Origin: Minisyncoccota bacterium
GTDB lineage: Bacteria; Patescibacteriota; Minisyncoccia; Phycocordibacterales; GWA1-40-21
Direction of reading: 5' to 3'
NCBI GenBank assembly: GCA_041663045.1
Contig: JBAZRH010000001.1
Span: 1,817 to 65,816 of the forward strand
DNA length: 64,000 nt
Of the stretch, positions 6,438 through 57,843 are shown in pieces; the stretch's first letter is position 1; every line of letters begins with the position of its first letter. Under the pieces are notes generated by a model. That model did not search any database and was not told the DNA's origin. It was given only the letters and a program-made list of their open reading frames with translations. A program made the position numbers and the translations under genes.

Positions 6438-6686
6438 ATGATAAAAATTTCATCAATATTTATTCTTGGTATCATTATTGCGATCGTTCCGTTTACTGGC
6501 TTCCCTAAGACAGTAAAGGATTTCACTTATATATTCGGTGGCCTTATTGTCACAGGACTCTCTTTACTTATCAGAAGAGAATTACATGAGGTTTTGAGGT
6601 CTCTTCACAATGATCATATAAAGACTGATACATTTTCTCAGAATTCTCCAGATCAAAAATCTAGTGAAGATAAAATAAATGGCTAA
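6438..6686 (+). CDS. small membrane protein (2 predicted TM helices)
   Basis: Hydrophobic N-terminal half. Stop overlaps the start of the next gene. Confidence 0.4.
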   Translation: MIKISSIFILGIIIAIVPFTGFPKTVKDFTYIFGGLIVTGLSLLIRRELHEVLRSLHNDHIKTDTFSQNSPDQKSSEDKING

Positions 6687-9841: not shown

Positions 9842-9985
9842 ATGATAGATAAATGGATTTTAATCTTATTTTTATTTATAGTACTCTGCTCTGTATCAGC
9901 AATTCTTGCCCGCAGGCAAGGTATGAAAAAAAACGAACAGTCTGACACGAATCTTTCCGCAGATGATTTTAAGATCTTAGAGTAA
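9842..9985 (+). CDS. possible small membrane peptide (47 aa)
   Basis: ATG ORF MIDKWILILFLFIVLCSVSAILARRQG... in the intergenic gap. Below the ORF-track size cutoff. Overlaps the next gene's end by 9 nt. Confidence 0.2.
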   Translation: MIDKWILILFLFIVLCSVSAILARRQGMKKNEQSDTNLSADDFKILE

Positions 9986-10735: not shown

Positions 10736-10737
10736 AA

Positions 10738-12355: not shown

Positions 12356-12382
12356 GATATGTAATATCTATTTTAGCACAAA

Positions 12383-14955: not shown

Positions 14956-14968
14956 TAAATCATTAATT

Positions 14969-15991
14969 ATGAAAAAAGTAAAACTTTTTAAGCCGTTTGT
15001 TTCATGGAGAGCTATTGTAAACGTGGTGCGTGTTTTGCTCTCTGATCAGCTAGCGGAGGGTCCACAAGTAAAGAGATTCGAAAAGGAATTTTCCGAAAAA
15101 TTCGGACTTAAGAATGTTGTAGCTGTTAACTCCGGTACTACAGCGTTAGAGCTTGCTTACGAATTAGCTAAGATTGAGAAAGGGGACGAAGTAATTACAA
15201 CAGTATTTACATGCACAGCAACCAATATACCTCTCATTCGTCGCGGAGCGAAAATTGTCTTTGCTGATATAGACAAAGATTTAAACATTAATATTGAAGA
15301 CGTGAAAAATAAAGTTACTCCGAATACCAAAGCTATCGTATTTGTTCATTTCGGCGGGAACAATAGGGGACTTAAAGAATTAATAGAATTTTGTCGGGCT
15401 CGCTCAATAAAGTTAATCGAAGATGCAGCTCAAGCCGTTGGGAGTGATTTTTGGGGTAAAGCAGATTTCGCTTGTGTTTCTCTGCAGGCGATTAAAACAC
15501 TTTCTAGTGGTGATGGAGGGTTTCTTATTTGTAAGAGTGATGAAGATTATAAAAAAGCTCGCAGACTTAGATGGTTTGGTTATGATAGAGACGAGAAACA
15601 GAAAAAAGGTGATATAGATCTTACTGAAGCGGGATATAAATATCATATGAATGATATCACAGCAGCAATCGGTCTTGGGAACCTATCTGTTATTGATAAA
15701 GTTATTAATCACAGAAAAAAGCTTATGAATATTTATTCAGAAGCTGGGCTGAACAGTCATATCTGGATGACTGCTGTGCTTGGTCGTGATTACGCTTCTT
15801 TATCAAAGAGGCTTAAGGAACACGGTTTTGAGACGGGTCAACATCATTATCGTAATGATAAGTATACTCTTTTCGGAGGCAGACAAAAACTTCCAGTTAT
15901 GGATTCTATAGAAGATAATTATTTTTTTATTCCTATGCACCACGCTGTTTCAGTTAAGCAAGCGAAAAAGATAGTTTCTTTACTTCAATAA
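14969..15991 (+). CDS. DegT/DnrJ/EryC1/StrS-family PLP-dependent sugar aminotransferase
   Basis: VNSGTTALELA, GDEVITTVFTCTAT and lysine-region context typical of the family. Confidence 0.7.
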   Translation: MKKVKLFKPFVSWRAIVNVVRVLLSDQLAEGPQVKRFEKEFSEKFGLKNVVAVNSGTTALELAYELAKIEKGDEVITTVFTCTATNIPLIRRGAKIVFADIDKDLNINIEDVKNKVTPNTKAIVFVHFGGNNRGLKELIEFCRARSIKLIEDAAQAVGSDFWGKADFACVSLQAIKTLSSGDGGFLICKSDEDYKKARRLRWFGYDRDEKQKKGDIDLTEAGYKYHMNDITAAIGLGNLSVIDKVINHRKKLMNIYSEAGLNSHIWMTAVLGRDYASLSKRLKEHGFETGQHHYRNDKYTLFGGRQKLPVMDSIEDNYFFIPMHHAVSVKQAKKIVSLLQ

Positions 15992-16017
15992 TCTCTTAAT
16001 TATATATTATCTAAAAG

Positions 16018-17715: not shown

Positions 17716-17734
17716 TTTTATTGATAGATCTTTT

Positions 17735-18658
17735 TTAGTTTATTTTCTTTAGTATACAGATATGTAAATCTCCAACGAACCACCCCTTCTCAATTAAGAA
17801 ATCATCCATCTTTTGAACCACGTCTTTTATTATTCTTGGCGACTTACTCCAACTGTTTTGCAATCCCGGTAATGCAGCAAAGTTTCTGAAGTATAATATC
17901 TCTAAATCTTTTCTGTCATACAACTCTTTATAATCGTCTGCAGAAGATATAGATTCAAACGGGGAGGTATTGTGAGAATGAGCAACTGATTCTGCGAATT
18001 TCATACTGAATAAAATACATGGAATTCTATAGAATAGTATTTTTAATAATTCTTTGATATTTAATTTAAATATTGCATGAGGTAGTCTGTTTAGGATTGA
18101 ATATAGGAAGGCGTTTGTTTTTAATTGTATAGCTTGATGAACCCAGGTGTCATTGATTATAATAACCCCCTTTTCTTTTAGTAGATTATCAATACAGTAT
18201 CTTAAGGTATTAAGCGGATCTACCAAGTGGTGTAAGGTGCCTTGAGTGATTATACAATCAAATTTTTGATAGAATTTGATTCTGTCTATTTTATTCAAAT
18301 CTCCCCGTAATACTATGCTTTTATGGTTGTATCTTTTCTCTAAATTATCATTTAATGATATATCTATTGAGGTTATGTCTTTTACTCCACTTAGATTTAT
18401 AATTTCATTGGTTAACCAGCCATCAGCGCTTCCTAATTCCAAAACACTTATATTATTTCCACATTTCCTAATATATTCCAACATGAGTTCAGTCGTGCCT
18501 CTTCTATAAGTTTGGTAAGGGGCCGACTCTTTTCTCTCTTTAAAACCGCTTCCATCTTCTGAACCTTTATACCTACTCCAGATTTCTATCTCTTTTTTAA
18601 GTAAGTCATCATACTCCTTGGAGTTTACCGTCATCTTGTCTTTATTATATCTTTCCAT
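17735..18658 (-). CDS. class I SAM-dependent methyltransferase
   Basis: VLELGSADGWLT motif I, DCIITQGTLHHL, GVIIINDT. Confidence 0.65.
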   Translation of the reverse strand: MERYNKDKMTVNSKEYDDLLKKEIEIWSRYKGSEDGSGFKERKESAPYQTYRRGTTELMLEYIRKCGNNISVLELGSADGWLTNEIINLSGVKDITSIDISLNDNLEKRYNHKSIVLRGDLNKIDRIKFYQKFDCIITQGTLHHLVDPLNTLRYCIDNLLKEKGVIIINDTWVHQAIQLKTNAFLYSILNRLPHAIFKLNIKELLKILFYRIPCILFSMKFAESVAHSHNTSPFESISSADDYKELYDRKDLEILYFRNFAALPGLQNSWSKSPRIIKDVVQKMDDFLIEKGWFVGDLHICILKKIN

Positions 18659-19541
18659 ATTTTCTATTACTTAAAAATCCAGATTCTATTTTAATCCAAT
18701 CTACAGGAGTAATATCTGCTTCCTTGTGTTTATTATGCCAAACCTTCGGACAGACAACAGTCTTCCCTTGATTTTGATTAAGCCAAGCACCCCACCAACT
18801 AAATGAACTATTGGCAATAATGTTATTTCTGCTTTTCGACATTAATAACAAATCTATAAATGGTTTATTAATATTTGAATGAATCACAGTATATTTAAGG
18901 TCTTTTGGTAGTATTTTTTTTGCATAGTCTTCATCTTCACAAAATACAAAAAAGTTTGGACTCATTATTTTTTCTTTGATTATAGACACCGCTTTCGAGT
19001 AGTATTCACCATTACAGATATCTCTGACTTCAGGTATTTTTAAATAATCACCAGCTCTTACGTGAATTGAAACAGACTCCCCTAGAGACATCTTTTGCTC
19101 AATGGATAGGGAATAGTCATCAAGCGTTTCTTTTGGCTGGAATTCCTTTAAAAGTATATCTCTGATATCATCAAAATAATTGAGGTTTTGCCAGTAGCCG
19201 TCAAAATATAAACTTCTATTGATCTCGAAGACATTTTTCTCAAAAGCGAAAGATTTTACCTCTTGGATATAGTTATTAGAAAACCTCCAAACACCTTTAA
19301 AAATAGAAGCTATTTTCTTCAGTAATATATTTCTGGGAAATAGCGTATTAATGATCTCATCTTTTGTAGCAGTATCTATATTAGTCAGATAATTTATTAT
19401 CTCCAATTTTCTGTGATTTTGTTTATCGAAAAAACTTATATCAAACTTTAATTTTCGTCCAGTTTTAATGGAGACACTTTTACCGAAAGCATATTGGAAC
19501 ATTTGATTTCCCAAACCTCCAGAAAGTCTAACAATAATCAT
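18645..19541 (-). CDS. glycosyltransferase family 11 (alpha-1,2-fucosyltransferase-like), second copy
   Basis: SGGLGNQMFQYAFG signature. Paralogous to 10738-11595 (shared SSFSWWGAWLNQN). Confidence 0.75.
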   Translation of the reverse strand: MIIVRLSGGLGNQMFQYAFGKSVSIKTGRKLKFDISFFDKQNHRKLEIINYLTNIDTATKDEIINTLFPRNILLKKIASIFKGVWRFSNNYIQEVKSFAFEKNVFEINRSLYFDGYWQNLNYFDDIRDILLKEFQPKETLDDYSLSIEQKMSLGESVSIHVRAGDYLKIPEVRDICNGEYYSKAVSIIKEKIMSPNFFVFCEDEDYAKKILPKDLKYTVIHSNINKPFIDLLLMSKSRNNIIANSSFSWWGAWLNQNQGKTVVCPKVWHNKHKEADITPVDWIKIESGFLSNRKYGKI

Positions 19542-20421
19542 CTTTATATTTTCTTATCTGTTCTACCCAGTAATCCATCCGTAGCGCAGGACAGGCTGTC
19601 TTAGAAGATAGTTCAACGAAGATTTGTTCGAATTCCTTTTCTGTCACATCTTTTAATTTATCCCATTTTTCAATCACCATAAGCGGTATTCCGATACTTT
19701 TCCAATATTCAGTTGGTATAGAGGCTTCAACTATCGGTATAGATTTAAGATATATGGTTTCCCATGTTCTATGACAATCGAGCCCATTTCCTGGGGGTGA
19801 TATGATGAATTTATATTTTGATATCTTTTTTAAATAGTCTTCTTTTGAAATAGTCTCTTTTTCGATTTCTGATAAGGTATCAGCAAGATTTATTTTTTTT
19901 ACTTCCTCTAATATAGGTATTCTTTTTTTAAAGTTTGTCCTAACCCAGAAACTGTAAAACAGTCTGGTGATTTTGTTTTTTTCATCAGAATATTTTTTAA
20001 TAGAATTTATAATTATGTTTTTCTTATCGCCAATACGGCTATCGATTCCTATTGGTATCGGAGTTATCTTTTTGTGCTCAAACAATAAGTTTTCTGCAAA
20101 CCAGTGTATTACCTTGTTATCATCTGCCAGTGATTTCATCTCTTCACTTACACCCATATCTTCATTGTGGGAGATAAGTATGTACGGATTATCAATCAGG
20201 GGATTAATCTTTGATGAAAATTCTTTTAGGAAGTTTGTCCTTACAAAAATAATGTCACCCCTGCTTACATCTTTAGGGTCAAAGTCCATCGATTCATCGA
20301 AAATATGTTGCGCTAGATTACGAAAAGAATCTCCGGATATATATGGATAACTGGTTGGTCTTTGTGTTTTTAACGCTTTGTTTAAATATCTCCTTACTTT
20401 TGTTTTTAATTCTAATAGCAT
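19528..20421 (-). CDS. hypothetical protein in glycan locus (possible glycosyltransferase)
   Basis: Intact 297-aa ORF overlapping the neighbouring genes on both sides. Confidence 0.4.
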   Translation of the reverse strand: MLLELKTKVRRYLNKALKTQRPTSYPYISGDSFRNLAQHIFDESMDFDPKDVSRGDIIFVRTNFLKEFSSKINPLIDNPYILISHNEDMGVSEEMKSLADDNKVIHWFAENLLFEHKKITPIPIGIDSRIGDKKNIIINSIKKYSDEKNKITRLFYSFWVRTNFKKRIPILEEVKKINLADTLSEIEKETISKEDYLKKISKYKFIISPPGNGLDCHRTWETIYLKSIPIVEASIPTEYWKSIGIPLMVIEKWDKLKDVTEKEFEQIFVELSSKTACPALRMDYWVEQIRKYKDDYC

Positions 20422-21692
20422 AAGATTTTTTTAATTTTAGAAGTCGTAAAGATAAAAGCAAAAGGGATTGAATATGATATAAAAGTAGCGAATGCTGCTC
20501 CTGCCATACCATATTTTGGTATGAGGAATATATTTAGTATGACATTTATTGACATACCAAGAAAGGATGAGAAAAATAGAGTCTTTTTGTAATTTTCTGC
20601 CACAAGATAATAGTTGGCAAGCATATTTAAAGATGTGGAAATATTACTCCAAATATATATTTGAAGTATCAATACTGCTCCGATAAATGCCGGACCGAAG
20701 ATTATCTTTATTATTAATTCAGCTAGTAGTGTAGTCGGTATGGCAATTATTATAGAAAGAATTAATAATATCAGACCCAGCTTTTTAATTCTCCTATAAT
20801 AAATTTCTTCAGATATTTTCTTGGCATTTATAATCGCCGGAAACATCGAAGAGACTATTATATTTGGCACGAGATACCAGACTTCAGATAGTCTAACTGC
20901 GGCATCATATAGACCGACGGATTTTGCATCCATCATATTTTTTATCATAATCTGGTCAATTCTAGAATATATTAAAGCAAAGGCAGATGAAAAGATGAGT
21001 GGCCAAGAATCATGAAGTATTTTCTTTGCCACTTCTTTACTAAAGGACCACTCTGAAATCATTTTATAGAGTTTTGTTCGATAGTATAGAAGCCCGACAG
21101 CATAAAAGATTGATTCTAAAAGTAGAACAAATGCCAGATATATAACTCCTTTTCCAAAGACCAAAACTAATATCTTTAATATGTTCAGAATTATTGTTAC
21201 ATATAAAGATAGGAGTGAAGGATATTTTGATTGAACGTTTGCTTGAAATTCATTACTAATTATATTAAAAGAATTGAAAATGAAACTAATACTTAGTAAA
21301 AATATTAGAAATAAGGAGACATCTTTAGGAGAAAACCACAGAGCAAATGTCGAGCAGAGGATTATAGCTAGGATAGATGCTCCCAACCTAAGCCCCAAAG
21401 CTGAACCCATGTATAAATTCCTTTTTTCTGGATATTGAATTAAATCTCTGTATAGTACCTGATCGATTCCAAGGACGGCGATAAAAGAGAATATGGACAC
21501 AAAACTAACTGCATAGCTTAACTCTCCATAGTTTGTTGGACCCAAATGTCTTGCGATATAGATAGTGGCTAAAAGGGAGACAGCCATACTTCCTATTTTT
21601 GCTAGAAACATCCAGCTCATATTTTTGAAATATTTCTGAAATCCAACGTGTTTCCATTTCTCTACTATGTAATTCCAAGAAAGAGTCTGCAT
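20412..21692 (-). CDS. polysaccharide biosynthesis protein, Wzx-like flippase (MOP superfamily)
   Basis: ~12 predicted TM helices. N-terminal FLAKIGSMAVSLLATIYIARHLGPTNYGELS typical of Wzx/RfbX. Confidence 0.65.
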   Translation of the reverse strand: MQTLSWNYIVEKWKHVGFQKYFKNMSWMFLAKIGSMAVSLLATIYIARHLGPTNYGELSYAVSFVSIFSFIAVLGIDQVLYRDLIQYPEKRNLYMGSALGLRLGASILAIILCSTFALWFSPKDVSLFLIFLLSISFIFNSFNIISNEFQANVQSKYPSLLSLYVTIILNILKILVLVFGKGVIYLAFVLLLESIFYAVGLLYYRTKLYKMISEWSFSKEVAKKILHDSWPLIFSSAFALIYSRIDQIMIKNMMDAKSVGLYDAAVRLSEVWYLVPNIIVSSMFPAIINAKKISEEIYYRRIKKLGLILLILSIIIAIPTTLLAELIIKIIFGPAFIGAVLILQIYIWSNISTSLNMLANYYLVAENYKKTLFFSSFLGMSINVILNIFLIPKYGMAGAAFATFISYSIPFAFIFTTSKIKKILCY

Positions 21693-21887
21693 AAATTTGA
21701 TTAGGTAAATATTACCATTTTTGTGCTATAATGCCACTTGCGAAAATTTATTTTTTATTAATAATAAAAATACTTGTCCTGTTATAAAATACGGACAAAC
21801 GTTGGTAAGCTTAATGTGGCAGGTAATTTATTATAGTGTATCATTAGAATAGTAAAATAATTAATAGCTTTAAATTTTATAACTGGG

Positions 21888-24023
21888 ATGACAAATACGA
21901 ATATAAATAATATTGTTAAGTATGCGATTTTCACGGGCCTCTGGGCTGTGCTTTTGATACCATTTTATGTGGCGAATACAATGTTTTTTCCTTATATCGT
22001 TGGAAAAAACTTTGCTTTCAGAATAATCATTGAAATAATTTTCGCTCTCTGGGTATATCTTGCCTTTATTGACGTGAAATACAGACCGAAATGTTCAATA
22101 GTTTTGAGGACGACAATAATCTTTACAGCGATAATGTTTCTAGCAGATATTCTTGCCGTCGCGCCGGTAAAAGCTTTCTGGAGCAACTTTGAGAGAATGG
22201 ACGGATGGATTACTTTGATACATTTACTTATGTATCTATTAGTCTTTGGTTCTGTAATGAAAACAGAAAAGCTTTGGTTGTGGTTCTTCAGATCGTCTTT
22301 GGCTATGAGTGTTGTTATGATTTTGTTTGTTACAAAAGAATGGCTTTCAACTGGAGCAACTAGAGTCTCCGTAACTCTCGGCAATCCAATCTATGTTGCT
22401 ATTTTATTTCTCTTCAATTTTTTCTTTGCACTGATTCTGCTTTATAAAGACGTAATCATTTTAAAGACAAATAGTTTAAGACCATGGTTAGAGATTTTTA
22501 AATCCTGGCTGACATATGTATATCTTATAATTGCATTTCTCTGTGTTTTCGGTATCTGGAGAACAAGCACTAGGGGTGTAATACTCGGTCTCCTTGGGGG
22601 ACTCTTTGTTTCGGCTTTGATGATTGCGATCTTTGAGAAAAAAGACAAAATAATGAGGAAAGTTGCAATCGGAGGGGTTGTTGCCATTGTCGTCATTATT
22701 GTTGGATTCTTTGCTATTAAGAATACTGAATTTGTTAAAAATAATGCAACACTAAGTAGGCTTGCAGCGATTTCTTGGCAAAATGTAAACGGGCAAGGAC
22801 AAGCAAGACAATATGTCTGGCCAATGGCATTCCAGGGTGTAAAAGAAAAGCCCATTTTAGGTTGGGGACAAGACGGGTTTAATTATGTTTTTAACAAATA
22901 TTATGATCCTAGAATGTATGCCCAAGAACAATGGTTTGATAGGGCTCATAATATGCCGATTGACATACTCGTGGCTGGTGGAATACTTGGTCTTATCTCT
23001 TATCTCAGCATTTTTGTCGCAGCACTTTGGTTGATTTGGAAGAGGAGAGAAAGGCTTGGTATTACAGACGCAGCACTTCTGGTCGGAGTCTTGGCTGGGT
23101 ATTTTTTTCAAAATCTTTTCGTCTTTGATAATTTAATTAGTTATATCTTGTTTTTTGTAGTACTAGCGTATTTACATTCAAGTGATACAGAAAATGATAC
23201 AGAGAAAGATAATGGAAAAAACTACCATATTAATCAGGAATTAATAAACTATATTGTTGCTCCTTTGTTGGTGGTCATCCTCGGTGTTTCATTTTGGTAT
23301 CTAAATTATAAACCGATTTCTGCAAACTTAAATTTGATACGAGCATTACAACCTTTAGAAGGAGGGCTTTCTGTAAATCTAGATCTTTTTAAGAAAATCT
23401 TGTCCTCCGAATCAGTCGGTACACCTGAGATCAGAGAGCAACTCCTAAGTGTCGTTCCGAGAATTGTCTCCATAAACGTGGATCAGAAGATTAAGCAAGA
23501 TTTTGTTGAATTAGCATACAATGAAATACAAAAACAAGTGGCCGAAACTCCAAACGATGCAAGGTATCAATTCTTTGCAGGACAGTTTTTGGCGAATCTA
23601 GGACAGTATCAAGAATCTTTACAATATTTTCAAAAAGCAGTTGAACTTTCACCCACAAAGCTAACCATGTTATCTGATTTATCCAAGACATTGGCTTACG
23701 TTGGAGATAAAAAGCAAGCGCTAGAAGTAGCAAAGAGGGCTTATGATCTGATGCCAGAATATGTTGATGTGAAAATAGGTTATATTTTTGCTCTTATAAT
23801 AAATGGGGATGAAAAGGCGGCAAAAGATTTGTTGGGTGCTACAACCACAACAGATGAGAGGATAGTCAGGGCATATCTTATAAATGCCTCGGATTACCTA
23901 AGAAAAGGAGATAAATGGAGTGCTGTGGCGGAAGTAGAGAAGGCGATTAAGATATCCCCCAATTTTGAAGCACAGGGAAGGGGTGTGATAGATGGCATTT
24001 GGAAAGGGGAGATCAAGGAATAA
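21888..24023 (+). CDS. O-antigen ligase (Wzy_C)-like membrane protein with C-terminal TPR repeats
   Basis: Multi-TM N-terminal part with WFDRAHNMPIDILVAGGILGL (Wzy_C motif). TPR-like repeats after residue ~520. Confidence 0.65.
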   Translation: MTNTNINNIVKYAIFTGLWAVLLIPFYVANTMFFPYIVGKNFAFRIIIEIIFALWVYLAFIDVKYRPKCSIVLRTTIIFTAIMFLADILAVAPVKAFWSNFERMDGWITLIHLLMYLLVFGSVMKTEKLWLWFFRSSLAMSVVMILFVTKEWLSTGATRVSVTLGNPIYVAILFLFNFFFALILLYKDVIILKTNSLRPWLEIFKSWLTYVYLIIAFLCVFGIWRTSTRGVILGLLGGLFVSALMIAIFEKKDKIMRKVAIGGVVAIVVIIVGFFAIKNTEFVKNNATLSRLAAISWQNVNGQGQARQYVWPMAFQGVKEKPILGWGQDGFNYVFNKYYDPRMYAQEQWFDRAHNMPIDILVAGGILGLISYLSIFVAALWLIWKRRERLGITDAALLVGVLAGYFFQNLFVFDNLISYILFFVVLAYLHSSDTENDTEKDNGKNYHINQELINYIVAPLLVVILGVSFWYLNYKPISANLNLIRALQPLEGGLSVNLDLFKKILSSESVGTPEIREQLLSVVPRIVSINVDQKIKQDFVELAYNEIQKQVAETPNDARYQFFAGQFLANLGQYQESLQYFQKAVELSPTKLTMLSDLSKTLAYVGDKKQALEVAKRAYDLMPEYVDVKIGYIFALIINGDEKAAKDLLGATTTTDERIVRAYLINASDYLRKGDKWSAVAEVEKAIKISPNFEAQGRGVIDGIWKGEIKE

Positions 24024-24481: not shown

Positions 24482-25492
24482 ATGGAAATTAAAAAGTTTG
24501 TAAATCTTTCAAAATATTCTACTTTCAAGATCGGCGGAGACGCGCGGTTTTTTTGTGAAGTTTCAAATGAAGCTGAGCTTAAAGAAGCTTTGGCTTTTGC
24601 AGAAAAAGAAAATCTACGTTTTTTTATTCTAGGCAATGGTTCCAATCTTTTGATATCAGATTTAGGTTTTGATGGATTTATTATAAAAAATAATATTAAA
24701 AGTTTGAATATTGAATCGGAGAATTCCGATGAAGTGGTTATTTCCGCCGGTGCAGGGGAGGACTGGGCCGACTTTGTAAAATACTCTATAAATGAAAATC
24801 TTTCGGGCGTAGAAAATCTTTCGGGAATACCAAGTTCTGTCGGAGCTTCGGCGGTGCAGAATATTGGTGCCTACGGTGTGGAAGCAAAAGATATTATAGC
24901 TTGTGTGGAGGGTTTAGATGCAAATAACGGAGAGAGCTTTTTATTGAAAAATAGAGAATGCAATTTTAACTATCGCGATAGTATTTTTAAGAAAAACAAG
25001 AATTTGATAATTACAAAAGTCTATTTCAATCTAGGAAGAAAGTTTATGCCGAAAATAGAATATCCGGATTTAAAAAAGGTTTTTGAAGGAGAGAAAAAAC
25101 TTACACCCAAAATGATTGGCGAAGCTATAATCAAAATCCGCAAAGAAAAACTTCCAGATTTGGAAAAATACGGCACAGCCGGCTCGTATTTCAAAAATCC
25201 AGTAATTACTGAAGAAAAATATTTAGAAATTGCAAAAAAATATCCGGAATTACCCAAATTTCCATCAGGAGAAGGCTTTGCAAAAATTCCACTTGGATAT
25301 GTGCTCGATAAAATCTGCGGTCTCAAAGGTTTTCGACAAGGCAACGCCGGATTTTATGAAAAACAGGCTCTGATTCTTGTGAATTTTGATGGAGCAAAGA
25401 GCATCGATATTATTGCTCTTGAAAATCTTGCAAAAAAGATGGTAAAAGCAAAACTCGGTATTGATATAGAAGCAGAGGTGGAGAAAATCTAA
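24482..25492 (+). CDS. murB: UDP-N-acetylenolpyruvoylglucosamine reductase
   Basis: LSKYSTFKIGGDARFF and GNGSNLLISD FAD-binding motifs. Length 336 aa. Confidence 0.8.
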   Translation: MEIKKFVNLSKYSTFKIGGDARFFCEVSNEAELKEALAFAEKENLRFFILGNGSNLLISDLGFDGFIIKNNIKSLNIESENSDEVVISAGAGEDWADFVKYSINENLSGVENLSGIPSSVGASAVQNIGAYGVEAKDIIACVEGLDANNGESFLLKNRECNFNYRDSIFKKNKNLIITKVYFNLGRKFMPKIEYPDLKKVFEGEKKLTPKMIGEAIIKIRKEKLPDLEKYGTAGSYFKNPVITEEKYLEIAKKYPELPKFPSGEGFAKIPLGYVLDKICGLKGFRQGNAGFYEKQALILVNFDGAKSIDIIALENLAKKMVKAKLGIDIEAEVEKI

Positions 25493-51624: not shown

Positions 51625-52218
51625 ATGGAGTTACTTATTGAGGCTTTTCTTTTAGGTTTAGTTGGCGGAGCAGTTCCTGGTCCAATACTGACCGGTACTT
51701 TTACCGAAATTCTTAGTGACGGCTTTATTAAAGGATGTAGGGTGATTATCTGGGCACTAATTGCAGAGACCATAGGAGCCATTATAGCCCTTTATGTCTT
51801 ATACACTTTGGGTCTTTCAAAAATAGTCATTCAAATTATTTCAATTGGTGGTGCCTTAGTACTTTTCTGGCTTGCCTCTAGTGTTTGGAGAATAAGGGAG
51901 ATTAATATTGAAGCCAAACAGATTTTATCTTTTCCAAAGATTATACTTTTGACAGCTCTTAACAGTGGTTACTGGATATTCTGGATAACTGTCGGTATTC
52001 CCAAGGCACTTTCGTTGGATCAAATATTAACCGATGGTAAGTTTTTGTTTCTATTTTTCTTTGAGCTAGCTTGGCTGATAATAACTTTTGTCTTAGCCTT
52101 TATATTCTTCAAATTTCGCCCTCTTTTACAAAGAAAGAATCTGGTAGGCGTGACTTTTAAGGTCTTAGCTTCCGTATTAATCTTGTTAGGTATTAAGACT
52201 TTAATTGGCGTTTTTTAA
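51625..52218 (+). CDS. LysE/RhtB-family amino-acid exporter-like membrane protein
   Basis: ~6 TM helices, N-terminal GLVGGAVPGPILT motif typical of the LysE superfamily. Confidence 0.55.
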   Translation: MELLIEAFLLGLVGGAVPGPILTGTFTEILSDGFIKGCRVIIWALIAETIGAIIALYVLYTLGLSKIVIQIISIGGALVLFWLASSVWRIREINIEAKQILSFPKIILLTALNSGYWIFWITVGIPKALSLDQILTDGKFLFLFFFELAWLIITFVLAFIFFKFRPLLQRKNLVGVTFKVLASVLILLGIKTLIGVF

Positions 52219-52259
52219 ATACAAAAGGCGGGGCGCGAAGCGCCCCGCCTTTTGTATTT
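52218..52259. terminator. bidirectional rho-independent terminator
   Basis: aaatacaaaaggcggggcgc...gcgccccgccttttgtattt between convergent genes. Confidence 0.8.
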
Positions 52260-52266
52260 AATTTAA

Positions 52267-53808
52267 TTAGTAAACCTGTATCGTCGCACTTACAGAATTG
52301 TTAGCACTATTTGTATCGTTTGTATTTGGTGTTATTTGAACACTAAATGAATTTGTGCCGGTAATCTGCGGATTGCCAAATATTATTGTATAGTCTGCGC
52401 TTGCACCAGAGGTCAAAGATGACTGATTGTCTTGTCTGTATGTGTAGCCGGCAAGGGAAGGAGACATACTGCCTGTTATGCTCCAAGTGCCTGAATATGA
52501 AGCGCCGATATTTGTCACTCTCACTTTTATCGCTGCATTTCCACCTCTTCCAACCTGGCTAGCAGAAACAAACTGTCCGTATGAGTCTATTGTCCCTACT
52601 CCGATAAGACTGATTGACAAGTCTGCGCCGGAAACATTGTTGTACGAACAACTTTCTTCCCAAGTTCTCAAGCATTTATTTCTTATTTCACACCAAGAAT
52701 ATCCAGCGCTTCCAAGACATCCGTGGATATCGGTATTTCCGCCGATAATATTTACATTATCGATTATATTTACGCTACCACATTGTTTTGTAATATTTGT
52801 GCCATTTGAAGTAATAGTGACAGAAGCTGTCTTTGTACCAGCAGTAGAGTATGTTTTTGTTGGACTTTTATCTGTACTAAACAAGGCATCAGTTCCATTC
52901 CAAGAATATGAATAGTATCCATTACCGCCATTTGCACTAGCAGTCCAGACTACTGCTTGGCCCGTGTATGCTGTCGCAGGGCTTGCTTGGCAACTCCCCG
53001 AAAGAGATGTCCAAGTATATGTTGTTCCGCCATTGTAGTTATAAGTGTTTGCACCATTATTGTATCCGTAGTTGTATGTATAACCATTACCAGGCACTAT
53101 CCCATAAGGGTAATTAGTGTTTGTATAATTATAATTTGTCGAACCAATTACCGATATTGGTATAGTCAAAAAGTTATTACTTGTGTTTGAATCAGTCGAA
53201 TAGTTAAGTGGATTTATTGTTATATATACACTGTTTGCTCCTGTATTTGTTGGGTTATCGAAACCTAGAACATATTGTACTCGATCCCCAGGATTTAGAG
53301 AAACTTGATTATCGGATTGATAATTTGGAGTTGTCATGGAAGGAAGGGTAGCCTTGAAAGACCATACTCCAGAAGCACTATCTCCAATATTTACGATTTC
53401 GAATTTAATGCCGATTTCATCTGTGGTATTTGTGTATTGGGTTTGGCTAAATTGTTTTGTATATCTGTCTATTACTCCGACAGCAATAAGCTTTACCGCG
53501 AGATCCGGTTTGCCACTTATATTTACTATGGATTTGTTTGCTGAAGCAGAAGACGTCGCATAGTTGTAACTGTTGTATGTATTGTAGACATTTGTTGTAC
53601 CACTCTGTTTTGTTTCAGTGCTTGTCGCTTGATTTGGTATAAAAGTTGATGTAAGGGAGGTGGCTATATAATTTGAGCCACTTGAAAAGAGTTTTGGTAT
53701 AAGTTTAAGAGGTACCCACACCAACAAGACGATAACAAGAATAAGCACTATCGCTGTAAATGCAGTGTAAAAAGACTCTTTCATTTTTGTCCAGATTGTA
53801 TTTATCAT
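52267..53808 (-). CDS. N-terminally anchored S/T/N/Y-rich surface protein with two CARDB-like domains and a Cys-bracketed Ig-like domain
   Basis: N-terminal TM helix, low-complexity linker, CARDB-like segments (DLAVKLIAVGVID.., DLSISLIGVGTID..). Domain C..P..G..VVWTASANGGNGYYSYSWNGTD is shared with the 54746 protein. Confidence 0.6.
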   Translation of the reverse strand: MINTIWTKMKESFYTAFTAIVLILVIVLLVWVPLKLIPKLFSSGSNYIATSLTSTFIPNQATSTETKQSGTTNVYNTYNSYNYATSSASANKSIVNISGKPDLAVKLIAVGVIDRYTKQFSQTQYTNTTDEIGIKFEIVNIGDSASGVWSFKATLPSMTTPNYQSDNQVSLNPGDRVQYVLGFDNPTNTGANSVYITINPLNYSTDSNTSNNFLTIPISVIGSTNYNYTNTNYPYGIVPGNGYTYNYGYNNGANTYNYNGGTTYTWTSLSGSCQASPATAYTGQAVVWTASANGGNGYYSYSWNGTDALFSTDKSPTKTYSTAGTKTASVTITSNGTNITKQCGSVNIIDNVNIIGGNTDIHGCLGSAGYSWCEIRNKCLRTWEESCSYNNVSGADLSISLIGVGTIDSYGQFVSASQVGRGGNAAIKVRVTNIGASYSGTWSITGSMSPSLAGYTYRQDNQSSLTSGASADYTIIFGNPQITGTNSFSVQITPNTNDTNSANNSVSATIQVY

Positions 53809-53923
53809 AATAATGTTATAATTAACCTATTAAAGTTTGGGAGAGAGAACTGCTAAACTTATTCCAGTGCATTATACCCCTATTGACTTTTTTTGTCAAG
53901 CGAGTAAAATAGGATCAAATATT

Positions 53924-54562
53924 ATGATAATTGAAACATTAAAAAAGGAAAACCCTATAAATTTCATAAAGCATAGAAAATGGCCATTTTTACTAGACTT
54001 TTTTATTGTTTGTTTTATTACTTTTGGCTTCTTATATATGTTTGGTTGGGTTCCAGATGAACTCAAGATGACGTTTGGAAGATACCCTGCGAAAGAAATT
54101 CTTAATAGGGAAAATGCAGAAGTCCCACTTTCTATAAGAATTCCCGTAATTGATGTCGATGCTCAAGTTTATAATCCGCAAAGTACAAGTACAGAAGTCC
54201 TGGATAGTTTTTTGGCAAGAGGAGCGGTAAGATACCCAGGGTCTGGACTTCTAGGTTATGGAAATATTTTTATCTTTGGACATAATTCACGCCTTGCGGT
54301 AGTGAATAATCAAGCGTATAAGACATTTAATAATCTTAGAGATCTAAAAACGGGTGATCTGATTTATATTGACTCAGACAAAAATGAATTTATTTTTAAA
54401 GTTTCTTCATTAAAGATGGAAGGGGCAGATAAAGCGTTGGTGACATTTGATACAAAGGTTCACAGACTTACTCTCGTAACTTGTAATACTTTTGGTGCAA
54501 AATCTGATAGATATGTCTTAGAAGCTGAGTTTGTAAGTAAACATCCACTTTCAGCCAAATAG
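53924..54562 (+). CDS. sortase (transpeptidase)
   Basis: N-terminal TM anchor, catalytic His in FIFGHNS, TLVTC cysteine motif. A TTGACT promoter at 53884 favours the ATG at 53924 over the ORF-track start at 53837. Confidence 0.75.
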   Translation: MIIETLKKENPINFIKHRKWPFLLDFFIVCFITFGFLYMFGWVPDELKMTFGRYPAKEILNRENAEVPLSIRIPVIDVDAQVYNPQSTSTEVLDSFLARGAVRYPGSGLLGYGNIFIFGHNSRLAVVNNQAYKTFNNLRDLKTGDLIYIDSDKNEFIFKVSSLKMEGADKALVTFDTKVHRLTLVTCNTFGAKSDRYVLEAEFVSKHPLSAK

Positions 54563-54687
54563 TAGGTTTGTTATTAAAAATCCGTCGATGTTCTTTATAT
54601 CTTTTGTAGGTATTTTTTCTCTTAAACCTTTTTACGCCTTATTTACTAGGTTTTTATAGGAATATATCAATGAAATTCATTATGAGC

Positions 54688-54716
54688 TTGACTTTTATAT
54701 TCATATACTATATAAT
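54688..54716 (+). promoter_or_regulatory. consensus sigma70-like promoter (TTGACT-17-TATAAT)
   Basis: Hexamers at 54688-93 and 54711-16 upstream of the 54746 gene. Confidence 0.55.
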
Positions 54717-54745
54717 TATGGGGAAATCATAAATAATAGAAATCT

Positions 54746-56632
54746 ATGGAAAATTTTATAAATACAAATAAACACGCTTTGTTCTTGGGAATTGTCTCCA
54801 TCTTTGCGTCTTTTGTGTTTCTCACTCCTTCATATGCTCATGCAGGGAACTTTTTTGGTGATCTTTGGGGCGATATAACAAATGGTGCCGGAGATGTAGC
54901 ACAAGGTGTTGCTGATGTTGCAGGCGATGTTTGGAAAGGTGGCGGACAAGTACTTACGCAAGTCGGCCAGACGACTGGTGATGTCTGGAATGCTGGCAGT
55001 AATATTGCTGGCGATGTCTGGAAGGGTTCTGGTCAGGCCATCACTCAAGTCGGCTCATGGGGAGGCGATGTTTGGAATGGTGCTGGGCAGGTAGCAACCC
55101 AAGTTGGTAACTGGGGAGGCGATGTCTGGAAGGGTTCTGGTCAGGCCATCACTCAAGTCGGCTCATGGGGAGGCGATGTTTGGAATGGTGCTGGGCAAGT
55201 AGTCACCCAAGTCGGGTCTTTTGGTGGTGATGTATGGAATGCTGGCAGTAATTTTTTCGGTGACTTAACCAATTGGGGCGGAGGAAGTTCTCAAGTAGCC
55301 ACAGCCGGTTGGACAAATACAAATACAAGTTCATATTCTAATTCAAACTCTAACGGTTCAAATTATCAAAATAATTCAAATGGCACTTGTGCCAACGGTA
55401 CTTTGTCTGCAGATGAGGCAGTCAGCGCTTTTCAGAGTGGCACTATTACCGTATCTTTCAATAAAATAAATAGTTCACAAGCAGAGACGACTATTACAAA
55501 CAATACCGGATGTCAGTTGCCTGCGGTTGTCTGGTCTTTCAAAGTTTACGACAATGTAACCTTTGATACTCAAAGACAATTTAATAATAGCGGTACAATA
55601 ATAGTTGCACCGCACTCTTCTCGTACTGTCGTGACTCCTCTTGCTCCTTGTCTTACTCAAGTAGACGCCCTTTATGATTCCGGAAATGTCGGTACAAGTA
55701 GGTTATTTAAAGGAATTATATTTGGTACCGACGGTAGATCCTTCAATTCAATACCTTCAGCTCAAGGACAGTTTTGTACGGATGTACCTCCTCCACCACC
55801 AACTCCAAATCCTCTATACATTTCTTGTTCTGCAAACCCAAGCAGTGTTCAAATTGGTAATACTATAAATTGGTCCGCAAATGCTTCGGGCGGAAGTGGT
55901 AATTATACATACTCATGGTCAGGTACTGATGGACTTTCTGGTAGTTCACAGGCTATTTCAAAAAACTATTCGAATGTCGGTAGTAAAAATGCTAGCGTGA
56001 CGGTGACTTCTGGTACACAATCTGCTACTGCAAATTGTTACGGAAATGTATATCAAGTTCAAGATTATAATTATTACTATGGCGGTGGTTATAATACTTA
56101 CTACTATCCTTACAATTATAATTATAACTATTCATACAACGAAGCCCTCTCCGGTTCTTGTTCTGCTGGGGTATCAAATACTTCTATAGGAAGTACAGTT
56201 ACCTGGACAGCAACTGCTATGGGTGGAAATGGATTTTTTACCTATTATTGGTATGGAGATGAAAATCTTTCAAGTAATAGCCAGTATGTACCCAAGGTCT
56301 ATTCTTATGGTGGAACAAAAAACGCTACATTAACAATAACTTCAAATGGACAGAGTATTACAAGAACATGTTCTGTAAATGTTGGTCAGGTACTTGCATA
56401 TTCCGAGACTAATCCTCTAGTATCATCTGTTTACTTGAGCCAGATCCCTTATACGGGCGCTGGAGATATCTTGAAAGTCTTGTTGTTTATCACAGCTTTG
56501 ACTCTTTGGAGTGGATTGATTGCATATTCTTCCTTGAAGAGGAGAGAAAAACACCATCAGATGTATCCTACAGGAGACACTAAACATGAAGATAATAGTA
56601 AAATCATAACCGACATAGAGATGAAGGATTAG
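54746..56632 (+). CDS. sortase-substrate surface protein with N-terminal GDVW tandem repeats and C-terminal IPYTG sorting signal
   Basis: Signal peptide, ~8 repeats of GDVWxGxGQxxTQVGxxG, two Cys-bracketed Ig-like domains (..W.A.A.GG.G.Y.YSW.GTD..), IPYTGAG + TM + KRREKHH tail. Confidence 0.7.
   Translation: MENFINTNKHALFLGIVSIFASFVFLTPSYAHAGNFFGDLWGDITNGAGDVAQGVADVAGDVWKGGGQVLTQVGQTTGDVWNAGSNIAGDVWKGSGQAITQVGSWGGDVWNGAGQVATQVGNWGGDVWKGSGQAITQVGSWGGDVWNGAGQVVTQVGSFGGDVWNAGSNFFGDLTNWGGGSSQVATAGWTNTNTSSYSNSNSNGSNYQNNSNGTCANGTLSADEAVSAFQSGTITVSFNKINSSQAETTITNNTGCQLPAVVWSFKVYDNVTFDTQRQFNNSGTIIVAPHSSRTVVTPLAPCLTQVDALYDSGNVGTSRLFKGIIFGTDGRSFNSIPSAQGQFCTDVPPPPPTPNPLYISCSANPSSVQIGNTINWSANASGGSGNYTYSWSGTDGLSGSSQAISKNYSNVGSKNASVTVTSGTQSATANCYGNVYQVQDYNYYYGGGYNTYYYPYNYNYNYSYNEALSGSCSAGVSNTSIGSTVTWTATAMGGNGFFTYYWYGDENLSSNSQYVPKVYSYGGTKNATLTITSNGQSITRTCSVNVGQVLAYSETNPLVSSVYLSQIPYTGAGDILKVLLFITALTLWSGLIAYSSLKRREKHHQMYPTGDTKHEDNSKIITDIEMKD
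54890..55270 (+). repeat. in-frame coding tandem repeat (18-aa units; two identical 79-bp blocks at 108-bp period)
   Basis: 55011-55089 and 55119-55197 are identical nucleotide-for-nucleotide. The surrounding units are diverged. Confidence 0.8.
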
Positions 56633-57033: not shown

Positions 57034-57843
57034 CTATTTGAAGTAGTGTGAGTATCCAAGGAAGAATGTTGGGCTGGAGAATGCGATGTCTGCCTGTTCA
57101 CCCATGTCGGTTTTTGATCCAGGTTCAAACTCCAATCCAAGTGTTAGGGCGCTTGTCTTTTTCTCGCCGAACATCATTGTGGCGTATGTTCTAACTGGGA
57201 ATGTATGCATTAGGACATAATTTTTCCGTACCTCGCTGTCATTGTTGCGGTCCCAACCGGACTGTGCAACATATGCACAATAACTTCCGCTTACGCCGAG
57301 CCACAAATTATCAAACGGCCCATCGAATGGAGCGACTTCAAGTGTAACCCTGGGTGTCCAATTTAGGAAAAGATCCACGAAAGGATAACCAGTAGATGGA
57401 ATAACGCCGACCTGTCTTAAATCGACATAAGTCAACGCCGCTCCCTCGCCACGCGTATCAGACCCTGGACTGTTCATATAGTTTCTCTCGGCCTCATTCA
57501 TGCCTATCCAGGGCAATATCATCCAATCGGCGCCGATATTCAATTTGACTCTCGGCCACTCGTTTACGCACATAAACGACAAATCGATCTTGTAATTTAT
57601 GTCATATTCCTTTTGTTCGATCGGACCTTGATTTCGCTCATACCCGGTATCGTCCCTGTGGTTCGGGATATTGCGGATTTCAAGTGGCATATTGTTTACA
57701 TGAAAGCCGAGATAGGTAAGATTGATACCGATAGCGGATTCTTGTAATTCTGCCGGCGATGTATTGTCCACCGCGAAGCTTATGCCTACGATCGAAAAAC
57801 AGAATACTAACACCAAGAATAATTTTCCGAATATTGTCTTCAT
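57034..57843 (-). CDS. hypothetical secreted protein (signal peptide; aromatic-rich, possibly beta-rich)
   Basis: N-terminal MKTIFGKLFLVLVFCFSIVGISFA signal-like sequence. Intact 269-aa ORF. Confidence 0.45.
   Translation of the reverse strand: MKTIFGKLFLVLVFCFSIVGISFAVDNTSPAELQESAIGINLTYLGFHVNNMPLEIRNIPNHRDDTGYERNQGPIEQKEYDINYKIDLSFMCVNEWPRVKLNIGADWMILPWIGMNEAERNYMNSPGSDTRGEGAALTYVDLRQVGVIPSTGYPFVDLFLNWTPRVTLEVAPFDGPFDNLWLGVSGSYCAYVAQSGWDRNNDSEVRKNYVLMHTFPVRTYATMMFGEKKTSALTLGLEFEPGSKTDMGEQADIAFSSPTFFLGYSHYFK

What the first reader, a model, noticed from the sequence alone, without database searches (positions are those of the whole stretch)
52267..56632. Sortase locus: sortase flanked by two divergently oriented surface proteins sharing a Cys-bracketed Ig-like domain, one with an IPYTG sorting signal
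The sortase (His in FIFGHNS, Cys in TLVTC) sits between a 513-aa N-terminally anchored CARDB-domain protein (minus) and a 628-aa protein (plus). The plus-strand protein ends with IPYTGAG + TM helix + KRREKHH, an LPXTG-type signal with Ile-Pro-Tyr instead of Leu-Pro-X. Both proteins contain the same ~75-aa domain (C..P….G..V.W.A.A.GG.G.Y.YSW.GTD.L………Y…G.K.A.VT.TS.G…T..C), present once in the first protein and twice in the second. This suggests a locus-specific adhesin module. It may be the organism's cell-surface attachment apparatus, which is relevant if it is an epibiont.
Basis: partly seen in the sequence, partly recalled or inferred. Interest (0 to 1): 0.5.

Follow-up and report, generated by a model that had tools for sequence, protein, structure and literature searches.

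The report
Paceibacteria sortase and its surface-protein substrate
This is a real three-gene cell-surface module of an uncultured Paceibacteria (CPR) bacterium, in which a divergent sortase sits next to the surface protein it most likely cleaves at an unusually long signal (VYLSQIPYTG); the same cassette recurs in dozens of related genomes but has never been tested experimentally.

Summary

- **Sortase.** The gene most likely starts at ATG 53924 (212 aa). It passes Pfam Sortase and has an invariant His120/Cys187/Arg196. Its AF2 fold matches solved sortases, but it reaches no NCBIfam class cut-off.
- **B (628 aa).** It has a signal peptide, two Cys-bracketed PKD-type domains, and IPYTG + TM + KRREKHH followed by 24 further residues.
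- **A (513 aa).** It is N-terminally anchored and carries one copy of the same PKD-type domain (49% identity, E 4e-17). Its CARDB assignment holds through homologues.

New here:
- The cassette gyrB–A(−)–sortase–B–thrS is conserved in more than 50 Paceibacteria species genomes.
- The signal is an extended motif, V[YF]L[SN]Q[VI]P[YA]TG, with P, T and G invariant.
- Relatives with no sortase at this locus also lack A, and their B-like protein carries a VPWG anchor without Thr (5 of 5 sampled). All 3 sampled PxTG-type proteins sit next to a sortase.
- In about half of family members the motif is internal, followed by a TM helix and a 100–370-aa cytoplasmic tail. The window's B lacks that tail.

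The most likely mechanism is sortase cleavage at T|G and covalent surface anchoring of B. This is a new variant of a known kind. The epibiont-adhesion role is untested.

The parts
52267..53808 (-). Gene A: 513-aa, N-terminally membrane-anchored surface protein. Order of parts: TM, S/T/N-rich linker, CARDB-like domain, Cys-bracketed PKD-type domain, 4-Cys mini-segment, second CARDB-like domain. It has no sorting signal.
   Evidence: ORF; hydropathy. 27 of 30 homologues hit Pfam CARDB. The family profile hits CARDB-like PDB entries 2kl6, 3idu and 2l0d. A divergent A-like gene lies upstream of the sortase in 55 of 68 assessable loci.
53707..53772 (-). A: single N-terminal transmembrane helix (residues 13-34). 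It is followed by a conserved juxtamembrane segment (IPxxFSxGxN…TSLSSxFIP).
53143..53523 (-). A: first CARDB-like domain (residues 96-222).
52765..53007 (-). A: Cys-bracketed PKD-type domain (residues 268-348; C273…C343), the domain shared with B.
   Evidence: Pfam PKD_4 at 22 bits, below the cut-off. 49% and 44% identity to the two copies in B.
52270..52635 (-). A: second CARDB-like domain (residues 392-513). It is absent from most, shorter (~330 aa) homologues.
   Evidence: BLAST matches to the CARDB region of homologues.
53871..53899 (-). Perfect sigma-70-type consensus (TTGACA-17-TATAAT) upstream of gene A, in the divergent intergenic region.
   Evidence: 12 of 12 matches. This is a consensus match only.
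53924..54562 (+). Sortase, 212 aa from ATG 53924 (the mechanical ORF starts at TTG 53837). It has an N-terminal TM helix (residues about 19-40; 53978-54043) and an extracytoplasmic catalytic domain.
   Evidence: Pfam PF04203 at 68.1 bits. 100% identical to an NCBI 212-aa 'MAG: sortase [Candidatus Paceibacterota bacterium]'. AF2 pLDDT 80.5. Foldseek match to L. monocytogenes SrtA, E 4.6e-10, target-normalised TM 0.77.
54281..54283 (+). Catalytic His120 codon (FGH).
   Evidence: Invariant in 101 homologues.
54482..54484 (+). Catalytic Cys187 codon (TLVTC).
   Evidence: Invariant in 101 homologues.
54509..54511 (+). Catalytic Arg196 codon (DRYV).
   Evidence: Invariant in 101 homologues.
54688..54716 (+). 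Promoter-like site (TTGACT-17-TATAAT, 11 of 12) upstream of gene B.
   Evidence: This is a consensus match only.
54746..56632 (+). Gene B: 628-aa secreted surface protein and predicted sortase substrate.
   Evidence: ORF. Identical NCBI protein is named 'PKD domain-containing protein'. A motif-bearing gene lies downstream of the sortase in 38 of 61 assessable species loci. All 3 sampled metagenome homologues are sortase-adjacent.
54746..54844 (+). B: signal peptide (residues 1-33, …SYAHA|G).
   Evidence: Sequence and hydropathy. The cleavage site is inferred.
54845..55321 (+). B: Gly/Trp-rich 'GDVW(K/N)G.GQ..TQVG' repeat region. It includes a 108-nt tandem repeat at 55005-55241.
55388..55777 (+). 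B: 4-Cys middle domain with no recognised family (residues 215-344), shared with the closest homologues P0123 and P0125.
55811..56053 (+). B: first Cys-bracketed PKD-type domain (residues 356-436).
   Evidence: Pfam PKD_4 at 30.7 bits against a cut-off of 27.
56144..56386 (+). B: second Cys-bracketed PKD-type domain (residues 467-547).
56429..56458 (+). B: extended sorting motif VYLSQIPYTG (residues 562-571). The predicted sortase cleavage is between T570 and G571.
   Evidence: Family consensus V[YF]L[SN]Q[VI]P[YA]TG, with L, P, T and G invariant in 35 sequences. All 80 DNA-pattern matches in metagenomes are true motif+TM members. The cleavage site is inferred from the known LPXT|G chemistry.
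56477..56557 (+). B: transmembrane helix (residues 578-597) and basic stop-transfer KRREKHH (598-604). 24 further cytoplasmic residues follow, to 56629.

Best explanation
The locus is a dedicated sortase/substrate surface-display module of a Paceibacteria (CPR/Patescibacteria) bacterium.

**Proposed pathway.**
1. B is exported through Sec by its N-terminal signal peptide.
2. Its C-terminal TM helix and basic stop-transfer residues hold it in the membrane.
3. The membrane-anchored sortase (His120/Cys187/Arg196) recognises the extended signal VYLSQ-IPYTG just outside the membrane.
4. It cleaves between Thr570 and Gly571 and forms a thioacyl intermediate.
5. It transfers B's ectodomain (GDVW repeats, a 4-Cys domain and two PKD-type domains) to an amine. 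The most likely acceptor is a peptidoglycan precursor, since the window encodes MurB, MurC and a MurD-like ligase.
6. The Gly-TM-tail stub stays in the membrane.

**Gene A.** A is an N-terminally anchored CARDB/PKD protein that is gained and lost together with the sortase. It is part of the module with an unknown role. The most plausible role is an accessory or partner surface protein.

**Shown versus inferred.** Shown: gene content, domain identities, the catalytic triad, motif conservation, genomic linkage, and co-variation of motif type with sortase presence. Inferred: cleavage at T|G, the nature of the acceptor, and any adhesive or epibiotic function.
For: **Sortase identity.**
- Pfam 68.1 bits.
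- H120, C187 and R196 are invariant in 101 homologues.
- AF2 pLDDT 80.5, with a TM helix and a beta-barrel.
- The fold matches solved sortases, with 130 hits at E<=1e-3.

**Signal.**
- [VI]PxTG is followed by D..K, a TM helix and K/R in 42 species loci.
- P, T and G are invariant.

**Linkage.**
- gyrB-A(−)-sortase-B-thrS recurs: 52 loci with gyrB, 52 with thrS, A in 55 of 68 assessable, B in 38 of 61 assessable.
- A motif-first scan of metagenomes gave 80 of 80 true members. A family sortase lies within 2.5 kb in 37 of 43 assessable loci, and immediately upstream in 26.

**Co-variation at the same syntenic site.**
- 3 of 3 PxTG-type homologues have CARDB plus sortase next to them.
- 5 of 5 B-like proteins whose anchor reads …SLxNVPWGW… (no Thr) have neither sortase nor CARDB gene (tblastn check on the first two, L084 and L085).

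**Substrate-like features.** Ectodomains in relatives are typical of sortase substrates: PKD, DUF11, SpaA-like, He_PIG.

**Peptidoglycan genes in the window.** MurD-like at 681-2018, MurC at 3276-4586, MurB at 24482-25492.
Against: - There is no biochemical evidence for cleavage or for the acceptor.
- The sortase reaches no class-specific NCBIfam cut-off (best is class C, 35.5 against 160). Its specificity therefore cannot be transferred from a characterised class.
- No NCBIfam model, including any sorting-signal model in that library, matches B.
- The signal is not strictly C-terminal. 57 residues follow it here, and more than 200 residues follow it in 34 of 72 relatives. This is not how classical cell-wall sorting signals look and leaves room for a different outcome of the reaction.
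- About 10 related loci keep A plus sortase but have no B between sortase and thrS. B is therefore not the only possible substrate. 6 of 43 motif-bearing genes are not near a sortase.
- Only 64 kb of this genome was available, so the number of substrates in this organism is unknown.
Confidence: 0.62

Rival explanations
1. The sortase acts as a protein-protein ligase or polymerase. It would join B's ectodomain to a Lys or N-terminal amine of the membrane-anchored A protein, or polymerise B into a fibre as class C pilus sortases do, rather than attaching it to peptidoglycan.
For: - A is coupled to the sortase more tightly than B is. A is present in 55 of 68 loci, including about 10 without B, and absent in 5 of 5 sortase-less loci.
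- A and B share the same PKD-type domain.
- The best class-specific HMM score is to class C, although it is far below the cut-off.
Against: - The A family has no invariant or nearly invariant Lys.
- B has no YPK-type pilin motif.
- The locus has only one signal-bearing gene, not the two or three pilins of pilus loci.
- The class C model scores 35.5 against 160.
- The fold search does not favour class C over class A.
Confidence: 0.13
2. The sortase works mainly as a site-specific maturase or sheddase. It would cut a bitopic precursor at T|G to uncouple or release the ectodomain (hydrolysis or transfer). The membrane stub, which in many relatives carries folded cytoplasmic domains, would be the functionally important product, for example as a checkpoint or signal.
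For: - 34 of 72 motif-bearing proteins have more than 200 residues after the motif, and 8 have 71-200.
- That domain is found almost only behind a [VIL]PxTG+TM module: 116 of 139 representatives, and most of the rest are fragments.
- There is a precedent that sortase-generated C-peptides are sensed in Streptococcus gordonii (PMC11326707, discussion).
Against: - The window's own B has lost that domain. Only 24 residues follow KRREKHH, and no remnant lies downstream. This cannot be the main function here.
- 30 of 72 family members have short classical tails.
- No partner or output for the cytoplasmic domain is known.
- Foldseek found no significant match.
Confidence: 0.15
3. The motif is not processed. 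B would be simply a C-terminally TM-anchored surface protein. VYLSQIPYTG would be a conserved juxtamembrane stalk, and the neighbouring sortase would act on other proteins.
For: - Relatives with a similar-looking but Thr-less segment (…SLxNVPWGW…) are evidently plain TM-anchored proteins.
- Some loci have a sortase without B.
- Some motif genes lie away from any sortase.
Against: - P, T and G are invariant, exactly the residues sortases require.
- A sortase lies within 2.5 kb in 37 of 43 assessable loci.
- In the 8 loci sampled (3 with, 5 without), presence or absence of the sortase matched presence or absence of the Thr-containing motif at one syntenic site.
Confidence: 0.08

Closest known systems
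Housekeeping (class A-type) sortase with LPXTG cell-wall sorting signals of Firmicutes (e.g. S. aureus or L. monocytogenes SrtA)
   Same: - N-terminally membrane-anchored Cys transpeptidase with a His-Cys-Arg triad and the sortase beta-barrel. The best Foldseek hit is L. monocytogenes SrtA.
- The substrate has a signal peptide and [LIV]PxTG + TM + basic residues.
   Different: - No class A model hit at all in NCBIfam.
- Sequence identity to solved sortases is only about 16-28%.
- The signal has five extra conserved upstream residues (VYLSQ) and Tyr at the X position.
- The enzyme is paired with one adjacent substrate rather than many dispersed ones, as far as can be seen.
- The signal is often internal, with long cytoplasmic tails.
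'Boutique' sortase/target pairs encoded side by side with a variant signal (own knowledge: e.g. SrtB with NPQTN, the streptococcal QVPTGV class, class E LAxTG, class D LPNTA)
   Same: A dedicated sortase gene sits next to its cognate substrate, and the pentapeptide variant co-varies with the enzyme.
   Different: - The enzyme does not reach the cut-off of any of these classes.
- The motif [VI]PYTG with the conserved VYLSQ prefix was not found in the literature searched.
- The lineage is CPR/Patescibacteria.
CPR sortase family fam000526 of Meheust et al. 2019 (PMC6744442)
   Same: That study already reported that more than half of CPR genomes encode a sortase family. The present enzyme is annotated 'sortase' in NCBI.
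   Different: In the passages read, that paper reports only the family's distribution. It describes no sorting signal, substrate, conserved gyrB-thrS cassette or CARDB partner.
Sortase-assembled pili (class C sortase with pilins)
   Same: A sortase is clustered with Ig-like-fold surface proteins that carry a PxTG signal. IPQTG- and VPDTG-type variants occur in pneumococcal pilins (own knowledge).
   Different: - One signal-bearing gene only.
- No pilin-motif Lys and no CnaA/CnaB isopeptide domains in the window's proteins.
- The class C model is far below its cut-off.

Membership tests
Sortase superfamily (Pfam PF04203) | HMM match above the curated gathering score | tested here: met
   68.1 bits against a cut-off of 26.6, covering profile positions 1-124 of 125.
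Sortase superfamily (Pfam PF04203) | Catalytic His, Cys (TLxTC) and Arg conserved | tested here: met
   H120, C187 and R196 are invariant in alignments of 20 and 101 homologues.
Sortase superfamily (Pfam PF04203) | Sortase beta-barrel fold with an N-terminal membrane anchor | tested here: met
   AF2 pLDDT 80.5, helix 19-39 followed by beta strands. Foldseek gives 130 PDB sortase-type hits at E<=1e-3, best target-normalised TM 0.77-0.81. This rests on a predicted structure only.
Sortase superfamily (Pfam PF04203) | Transpeptidase activity on a PxTG peptide | not testable with these tools
   Needs an enzyme assay.
Sortase classes A-F (NCBIfam class models) | Score above the class-specific cut-off | tested here: not met
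   Class C 35.5/160, class D 34.1/165, SrtD 33/140, class E 27.8/160, GN 21.6/158, class F 18.9/166. No class A or class B hit at E<=1.
LPXTG-type cell-wall sorting signal | [LIV]PxTG pentapeptide followed by a hydrophobic segment and a basic tail, in a protein with an N-terminal signal peptide | tested here: met
   IPYTG at 567-571, TM at 578-597, KRREKHH at 598-604, signal peptide at 1-33.
LPXTG-type cell-wall sorting signal | Signal lies at the extreme C-terminus (about 30-40 residues from motif to end) | tested here: inconclusive
   57 residues follow the motif in the window's B. Among relatives, 30 of 72 have <=70 residues and 34 of 72 have >200.
LPXTG-type cell-wall sorting signal | Recognised by a curated sorting-signal HMM | tested here: not met
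   No NCBIfam family matches B at E<=1.
LPXTG-type cell-wall sorting signal | Cleavage between T and G and linkage to peptidoglycan | not testable with these tools
   Needs biochemistry or proteomics. Peptidoglycan synthesis genes are present in the window.
PKD domain (PF18911/PF00801) | HMM match above the gathering score | tested here: met
   B scores 30.7 bits against 27, with two matched stretches. A's copy alone scores 22 bits, below the cut-off, but is 49% identical to B's.
CARDB domain (PF07705), for protein A | HMM match | tested here: inconclusive
   The window's A gives no hit at E<=0.1. 27 of 30 aligned homologues hit CARDB, best E 3.7e-16. The family profile hits CARDB-like PDB chains 2kl6, 3idu and 2l0d.
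Sortase-assembled pilus locus | Class C sortase, at least two pilin genes with a sorting signal, and a pilin-motif Lys (YPKN) | tested here: not met
   One signal-bearing gene in the locus. The class C model is below its cut-off. B has no YPK motif. The A family has no invariant Lys.

The most novel reading that the evidence does not exclude
In this Paceibacteria family the [VI]PYTG motif would be an internal sortase site in bitopic proteins. Sortase cleavage would split the precursor into two parts. One is a covalently surface-linked adhesin. The other is a membrane-anchored stub carrying family-specific cytoplasmic domains (an AAA+-lid-like domain, with or without a second ~100-aa domain). 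The stub would then act inside the cell as an assembly checkpoint, a localisation device or a signal. The co-inherited CARDB protein A would be an obligate accessory. That would be a sortase-dependent transmembrane maturation system without a described counterpart. The window's B would be a derived, tail-less form.
Probability: 0.2. Interest if true: 0.75.

Novelty: new variant of a known kind. Interest (0 to 1): 0.5.

Why it matters
CPR/Patescibacteria make up a large share of bacterial diversity. The cultivated members live attached to host cells, yet how they build their surface is largely unknown.

This locus gives a concrete, testable enzyme-substrate pair:
- a compact sortase outside the established classes;
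- a ten-residue recognition motif;
- a defined substrate;
- a co-inherited partner protein.

It is fixed at one chromosomal position in more than 50 species genomes. Natural 'knock-out' lineages, with no sortase, no partner protein and no Thr in the anchor, serve as controls.

If the enzyme is active it would also be a new specificity for sortase-based protein ligation. The frequent cytoplasmic domains behind the motif would challenge the view that sortase signals are purely C-terminal disposable tags.

Tried and rejected
- **Profile search for the signal.** A 50-residue profile of the signal (alignment A3) searched against the 5.8-billion-protein collection returned only one hit at E<=0.01. 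Short profiles cannot reach significance there, so it gave no information on distribution. The degenerate-DNA scan replaced it.
- **A second 'VPFTG + TM' near 6486 in the window.** It lies inside the N-terminal TM helix of an 82-aa ORF (6438..6686) and is a chance match.
- **A frameshifted remnant of the cytoplasmic domain downstream of B.** None was found by tblastn with tails of close homologues.
- **Pilus interpretation.** Rejected: no pilin motif, one substrate gene, class C model far below cut-off.
- **Literature.** No paper mentions VPYTG or IPYTG in a sortase context, or a sorting signal for Patescibacteria sortases.
- **The 269-aa neighbour (57034..57843).** No Pfam, NCBIfam or PDB match, and no homologue in the 80 species loci L001-L080.

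Full report
**1. The observation**

- A at 52267..53808 (−), 513 aa.
- The sortase ORF at 53837..54562 (+).
- B at 54746..56632 (+), 628 aa.

The sortase most likely starts at ATG 53924 and is 212 aa long. All homologues are about 205-215 aa, and the identical NCBI protein is 212 aa. A perfect TTGACA-17-TATAAT consensus for the divergent gene A lies inside the upstream extension.

In that numbering, His120 (FGH), Cys187 (TLVTC) and Arg196 (DRYV) form the sortase triad.

B ends with VYLSQ-IPYTG (562-571), AGDILK, a 20-residue hydrophobic helix (578-597), KRREKHH (598-604) and 24 more residues.

The shared ~80-aa domain is real. A268-348 against B467-546 is 49% identical (E 4e-17). A272-343 against B360-431 is 44% identical (E 5e-15). 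Each copy is bracketed by two Cys 70 residues apart.

**2. What the parts are**

*Sortase.* It passes Pfam Sortase (68.1 bits against 26.6). The triad is invariant in 101 homologues. An AF2 model (pLDDT 80.5) shows an N-terminal TM helix and a beta-barrel. That model matches solved sortases of classes A, C, D and E about equally; the best is L. monocytogenes SrtA (E 4.6e-10, target-normalised TM 0.77). No NCBIfam class model comes near its cut-off: class C 35.5/160, D 34/165, E 28/160, F 19/166, and no hit for A or B. PDB sequence matches are weak (best E 2.4e-8). It is a genuine sortase outside the curated classes.

*Shared domain.* It is a Cys-bracketed subtype of the PKD domain. PF18911 scores 30.7 bits in B, above the cut-off, and 22 bits in A.

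*Protein A.* Its CARDB identity cannot be shown from A alone, but 27 of 30 homologues hit PF07705, best E 3.7e-16. The family profile finds CARDB-like PDB chains.

*Organism.* It is a Candidatus Paceibacterota MAG. The window encodes a MurD-like ligase, MurC and MurB, so peptidoglycan is presumably made.

**3. Comparative evidence**

*Species genomes.* A scan of one genome per GTDB species with a sortase profile gave 80 loci, almost all labelled Patescibacteria-type MAGs.
- The order gyrB(+), A-like(−), sortase(+), B-like(+), thrS(−) recurs. gyrB was found in 52 loci and thrS in 52.
- A divergent A-like gene is present in 55 of 68 loci with enough upstream sequence.
- A motif-bearing gene is present in 38 of 61 loci with enough downstream sequence.

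*The motif.* The downstream proteins vary widely in their ectodomains (PKD, DUF11, SpaA-like, He_PIG). They share V[YF]L[SN]Q[VI]P[YA]TG-x2-D-x2-K-TM-[KR], with L, P, T and G invariant.

*Motif-first scan.* A degenerate DNA pattern for VYLSQ[VI]PYTG in metagenome contigs returned 80 loci. All encode the motif, and 78 of them are followed by a clear TM helix; two identical copies look truncated. So there were no chance matches. Of 43 assessable loci, 26 have a family sortase immediately upstream, 11 have one within 0.8-2.5 kb, and 6 have none.

**4. A natural control**

Among PKD-type relatives of B, 46 carry the PxTG signal. Another 41 end in …LFSLxNVPWGW-TM-NRxKI, a similar-looking anchor without the Thr.
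- Three PxTG-type proteins on long contigs all sit in gyrB/…-CARDB(−)-sortase-B-thrS.
- Five VPWG-type proteins all sit directly after gyrB. Four of them also lie just before thrS. None has a sortase or a CARDB gene between. tblastn confirmed the absence for the first two, L084 and L085.

Sortase, A and the Thr-containing motif therefore appear and disappear together at one syntenic site. This is the strongest available argument that B is the sortase's substrate and that A belongs to the module.

**5. An unexpected family feature**

The number of residues after the motif is bimodal: <=70 in 30 proteins, 71-200 in 8, and >200 in 34, out of 72. The closest homologues of the window's B (P0123, P0125) have 131-136 residues after the motif, including a ~65-aa domain (…IEDYAR…S..A…EW..IGE.D…).
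- This domain has no Pfam or PDB sequence match.
- It is predicted with pLDDT 80-90.
- A profile search of 1.84 billion representatives found only 229 proteins at E<=1e-3. Of 139 new representatives, 116 carry [VIL]PxTG, and most of the others are short fragments.

The domain is thus essentially exclusive to this substrate family.

The window's B lacks it and shows no remnant downstream. Instead a 269-aa gene absent from the 80 species loci L001-L080 lies between B and thrS.

**6. Mechanism**

The best-supported reading follows the established LPXTG/sortase pathway:
1. B is exported through Sec.
2. The TM helix and basic residues retain it in the membrane.
3. The sortase cleaves at Thr570|Gly571.
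4. The ectodomain is transferred to an amine, most plausibly a peptidoglycan precursor.

The cleavage and the acceptor are inferred. Three rivals remain:
- Ligation to A, or polymerisation. Against this: no invariant Lys in A, no pilin motif in B, and only one substrate gene.
- A maturase or sheddase role centred on the cytoplasmic stub. This is attractive for long-tailed relatives but not applicable to this tail-less B. A precedent for sensing of sortase-generated C-peptides exists (PMC11326707).
- No processing at all. Against this: the invariance of P, T and G, and the co-variation described above.

About 10 loci keep A plus sortase without an adjacent B, and 6 of 43 motif genes are unlinked to a sortase. 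Additional or relocated substrates are therefore likely in some genomes.

**7. Comparison with what is known, and verdict**

That sortases are common in CPR bacteria is published (PMC6744442). The two genes are already annotated 'sortase' and 'PKD domain-containing protein'. The following were not found in the literature searched:
- the extended VYLSQ[VI]PYTG signal;
- the conserved gyrB-thrS cassette with a CARDB partner;
- the motif/sortase co-variation;
- the internal position of the signal ahead of dedicated cytoplasmic domains.

I rate this a new variant of a known kind. It is of moderate interest for this window and higher for the family as a whole. The suggested role in epibiotic attachment is plausible from the adhesin-like domains but untested.

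Noticed in passing
window 57034-57843 (−): A 269-aa ORF with an N-terminal signal peptide and a C-terminus ending …FFLGYSHYFK. It has no Pfam, NCBIfam or PDB match and no homologue in the 80 species loci L001-L080. It sits exactly where close relatives of B carry their cytoplasmic tail domain, so it may mark an insertion that truncated B. A beta-rich, aromatic C-terminal end would be odd for a presumed monoderm.
   Followed up: partly
relatives: P0177-P0228; loci L084-L088: 41 PKD-type relatives of B end in a distinct, very conserved C-terminal anchor (…LFSLxNVPWGWvAiLiILVLF…YLlFNRxKI). In all five sampled cases they occupy the gyrB side of the same syntenic site without a sortase or a CARDB gene. 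The anchor looks like a Thr-less cousin of the VYLSQVPYTG signal. Which form is ancestral is open.
   Followed up: partly
relatives: P0145, P0216, P0227, P0230, P0231, P0233, P0234, P0240, P0241: Another group of PKD/CARDB proteins ends abruptly in …V.P.[FY].E[FIQ] with no TM segment. This may be a third kind of C-terminal signal in the same lineage.
   Followed up: no
relatives: L043, L050, L056-L058, L064, L065, L069, L071, L075; P0150, P0180: Long-tailed substrates carry a second conserved cytoplasmic domain of about 100 aa at the very C-terminus (…LD..YR.R…TG.KLA.A..FE..G). It has no Pfam match. P0180 has this domain without the first one.
   Followed up: no
window 55005-55241 (+): A 108-nt tandem repeat (2.2 copies, up to 96% identical; 54-nt sub-period) lies inside B's GDVW-repeat region. 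Such near-identical copies suggest recent expansion and possible length variation of the surface protein.
   Followed up: partly
window 52633-52743 (−), A residues 356-392: A 4-Cys mini-segment (HGCLGSAGYSWCEIRNKCLRTWEESC) and a second CARDB-like domain extend A beyond the ~330-aa form seen in most relatives. The segment was not identified.
   Followed up: no
window 9977-24023: A low-GC (0.31-0.35) polysaccharide island. It holds a GT2, two GT11 (fucosyltransferase-type) enzymes, methyltransferases, an epimerase/dehydratase, a DegT aminotransferase, a Wzx-type flippase and an O-antigen-ligase-like protein with TPR repeats. It points to a glycosylated surface polymer and may have been acquired horizontally.
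   Followed up: partly
window 7915-9837 (+): A 640-aa protein with weak TrwB/HerA-type (type IV coupling protein-like) ATPase matches.
   Followed up: no
window 52215-52261: A 20-bp perfect GC-rich hairpin lies between the convergent LysE-type gene (51625-52218) and gene A. It is a likely bidirectional terminator.
   Followed up: no
window 53978-54100 (sortase residues about 40-60): Between the TM helix and the catalytic domain, the sortase family has a conserved segment (LVPEEFK..GR.P, with R53 invariant and P44 nearly so). It is modelled with low confidence. Whether it is a lid-like or regulatory element is unknown.
   Followed up: no
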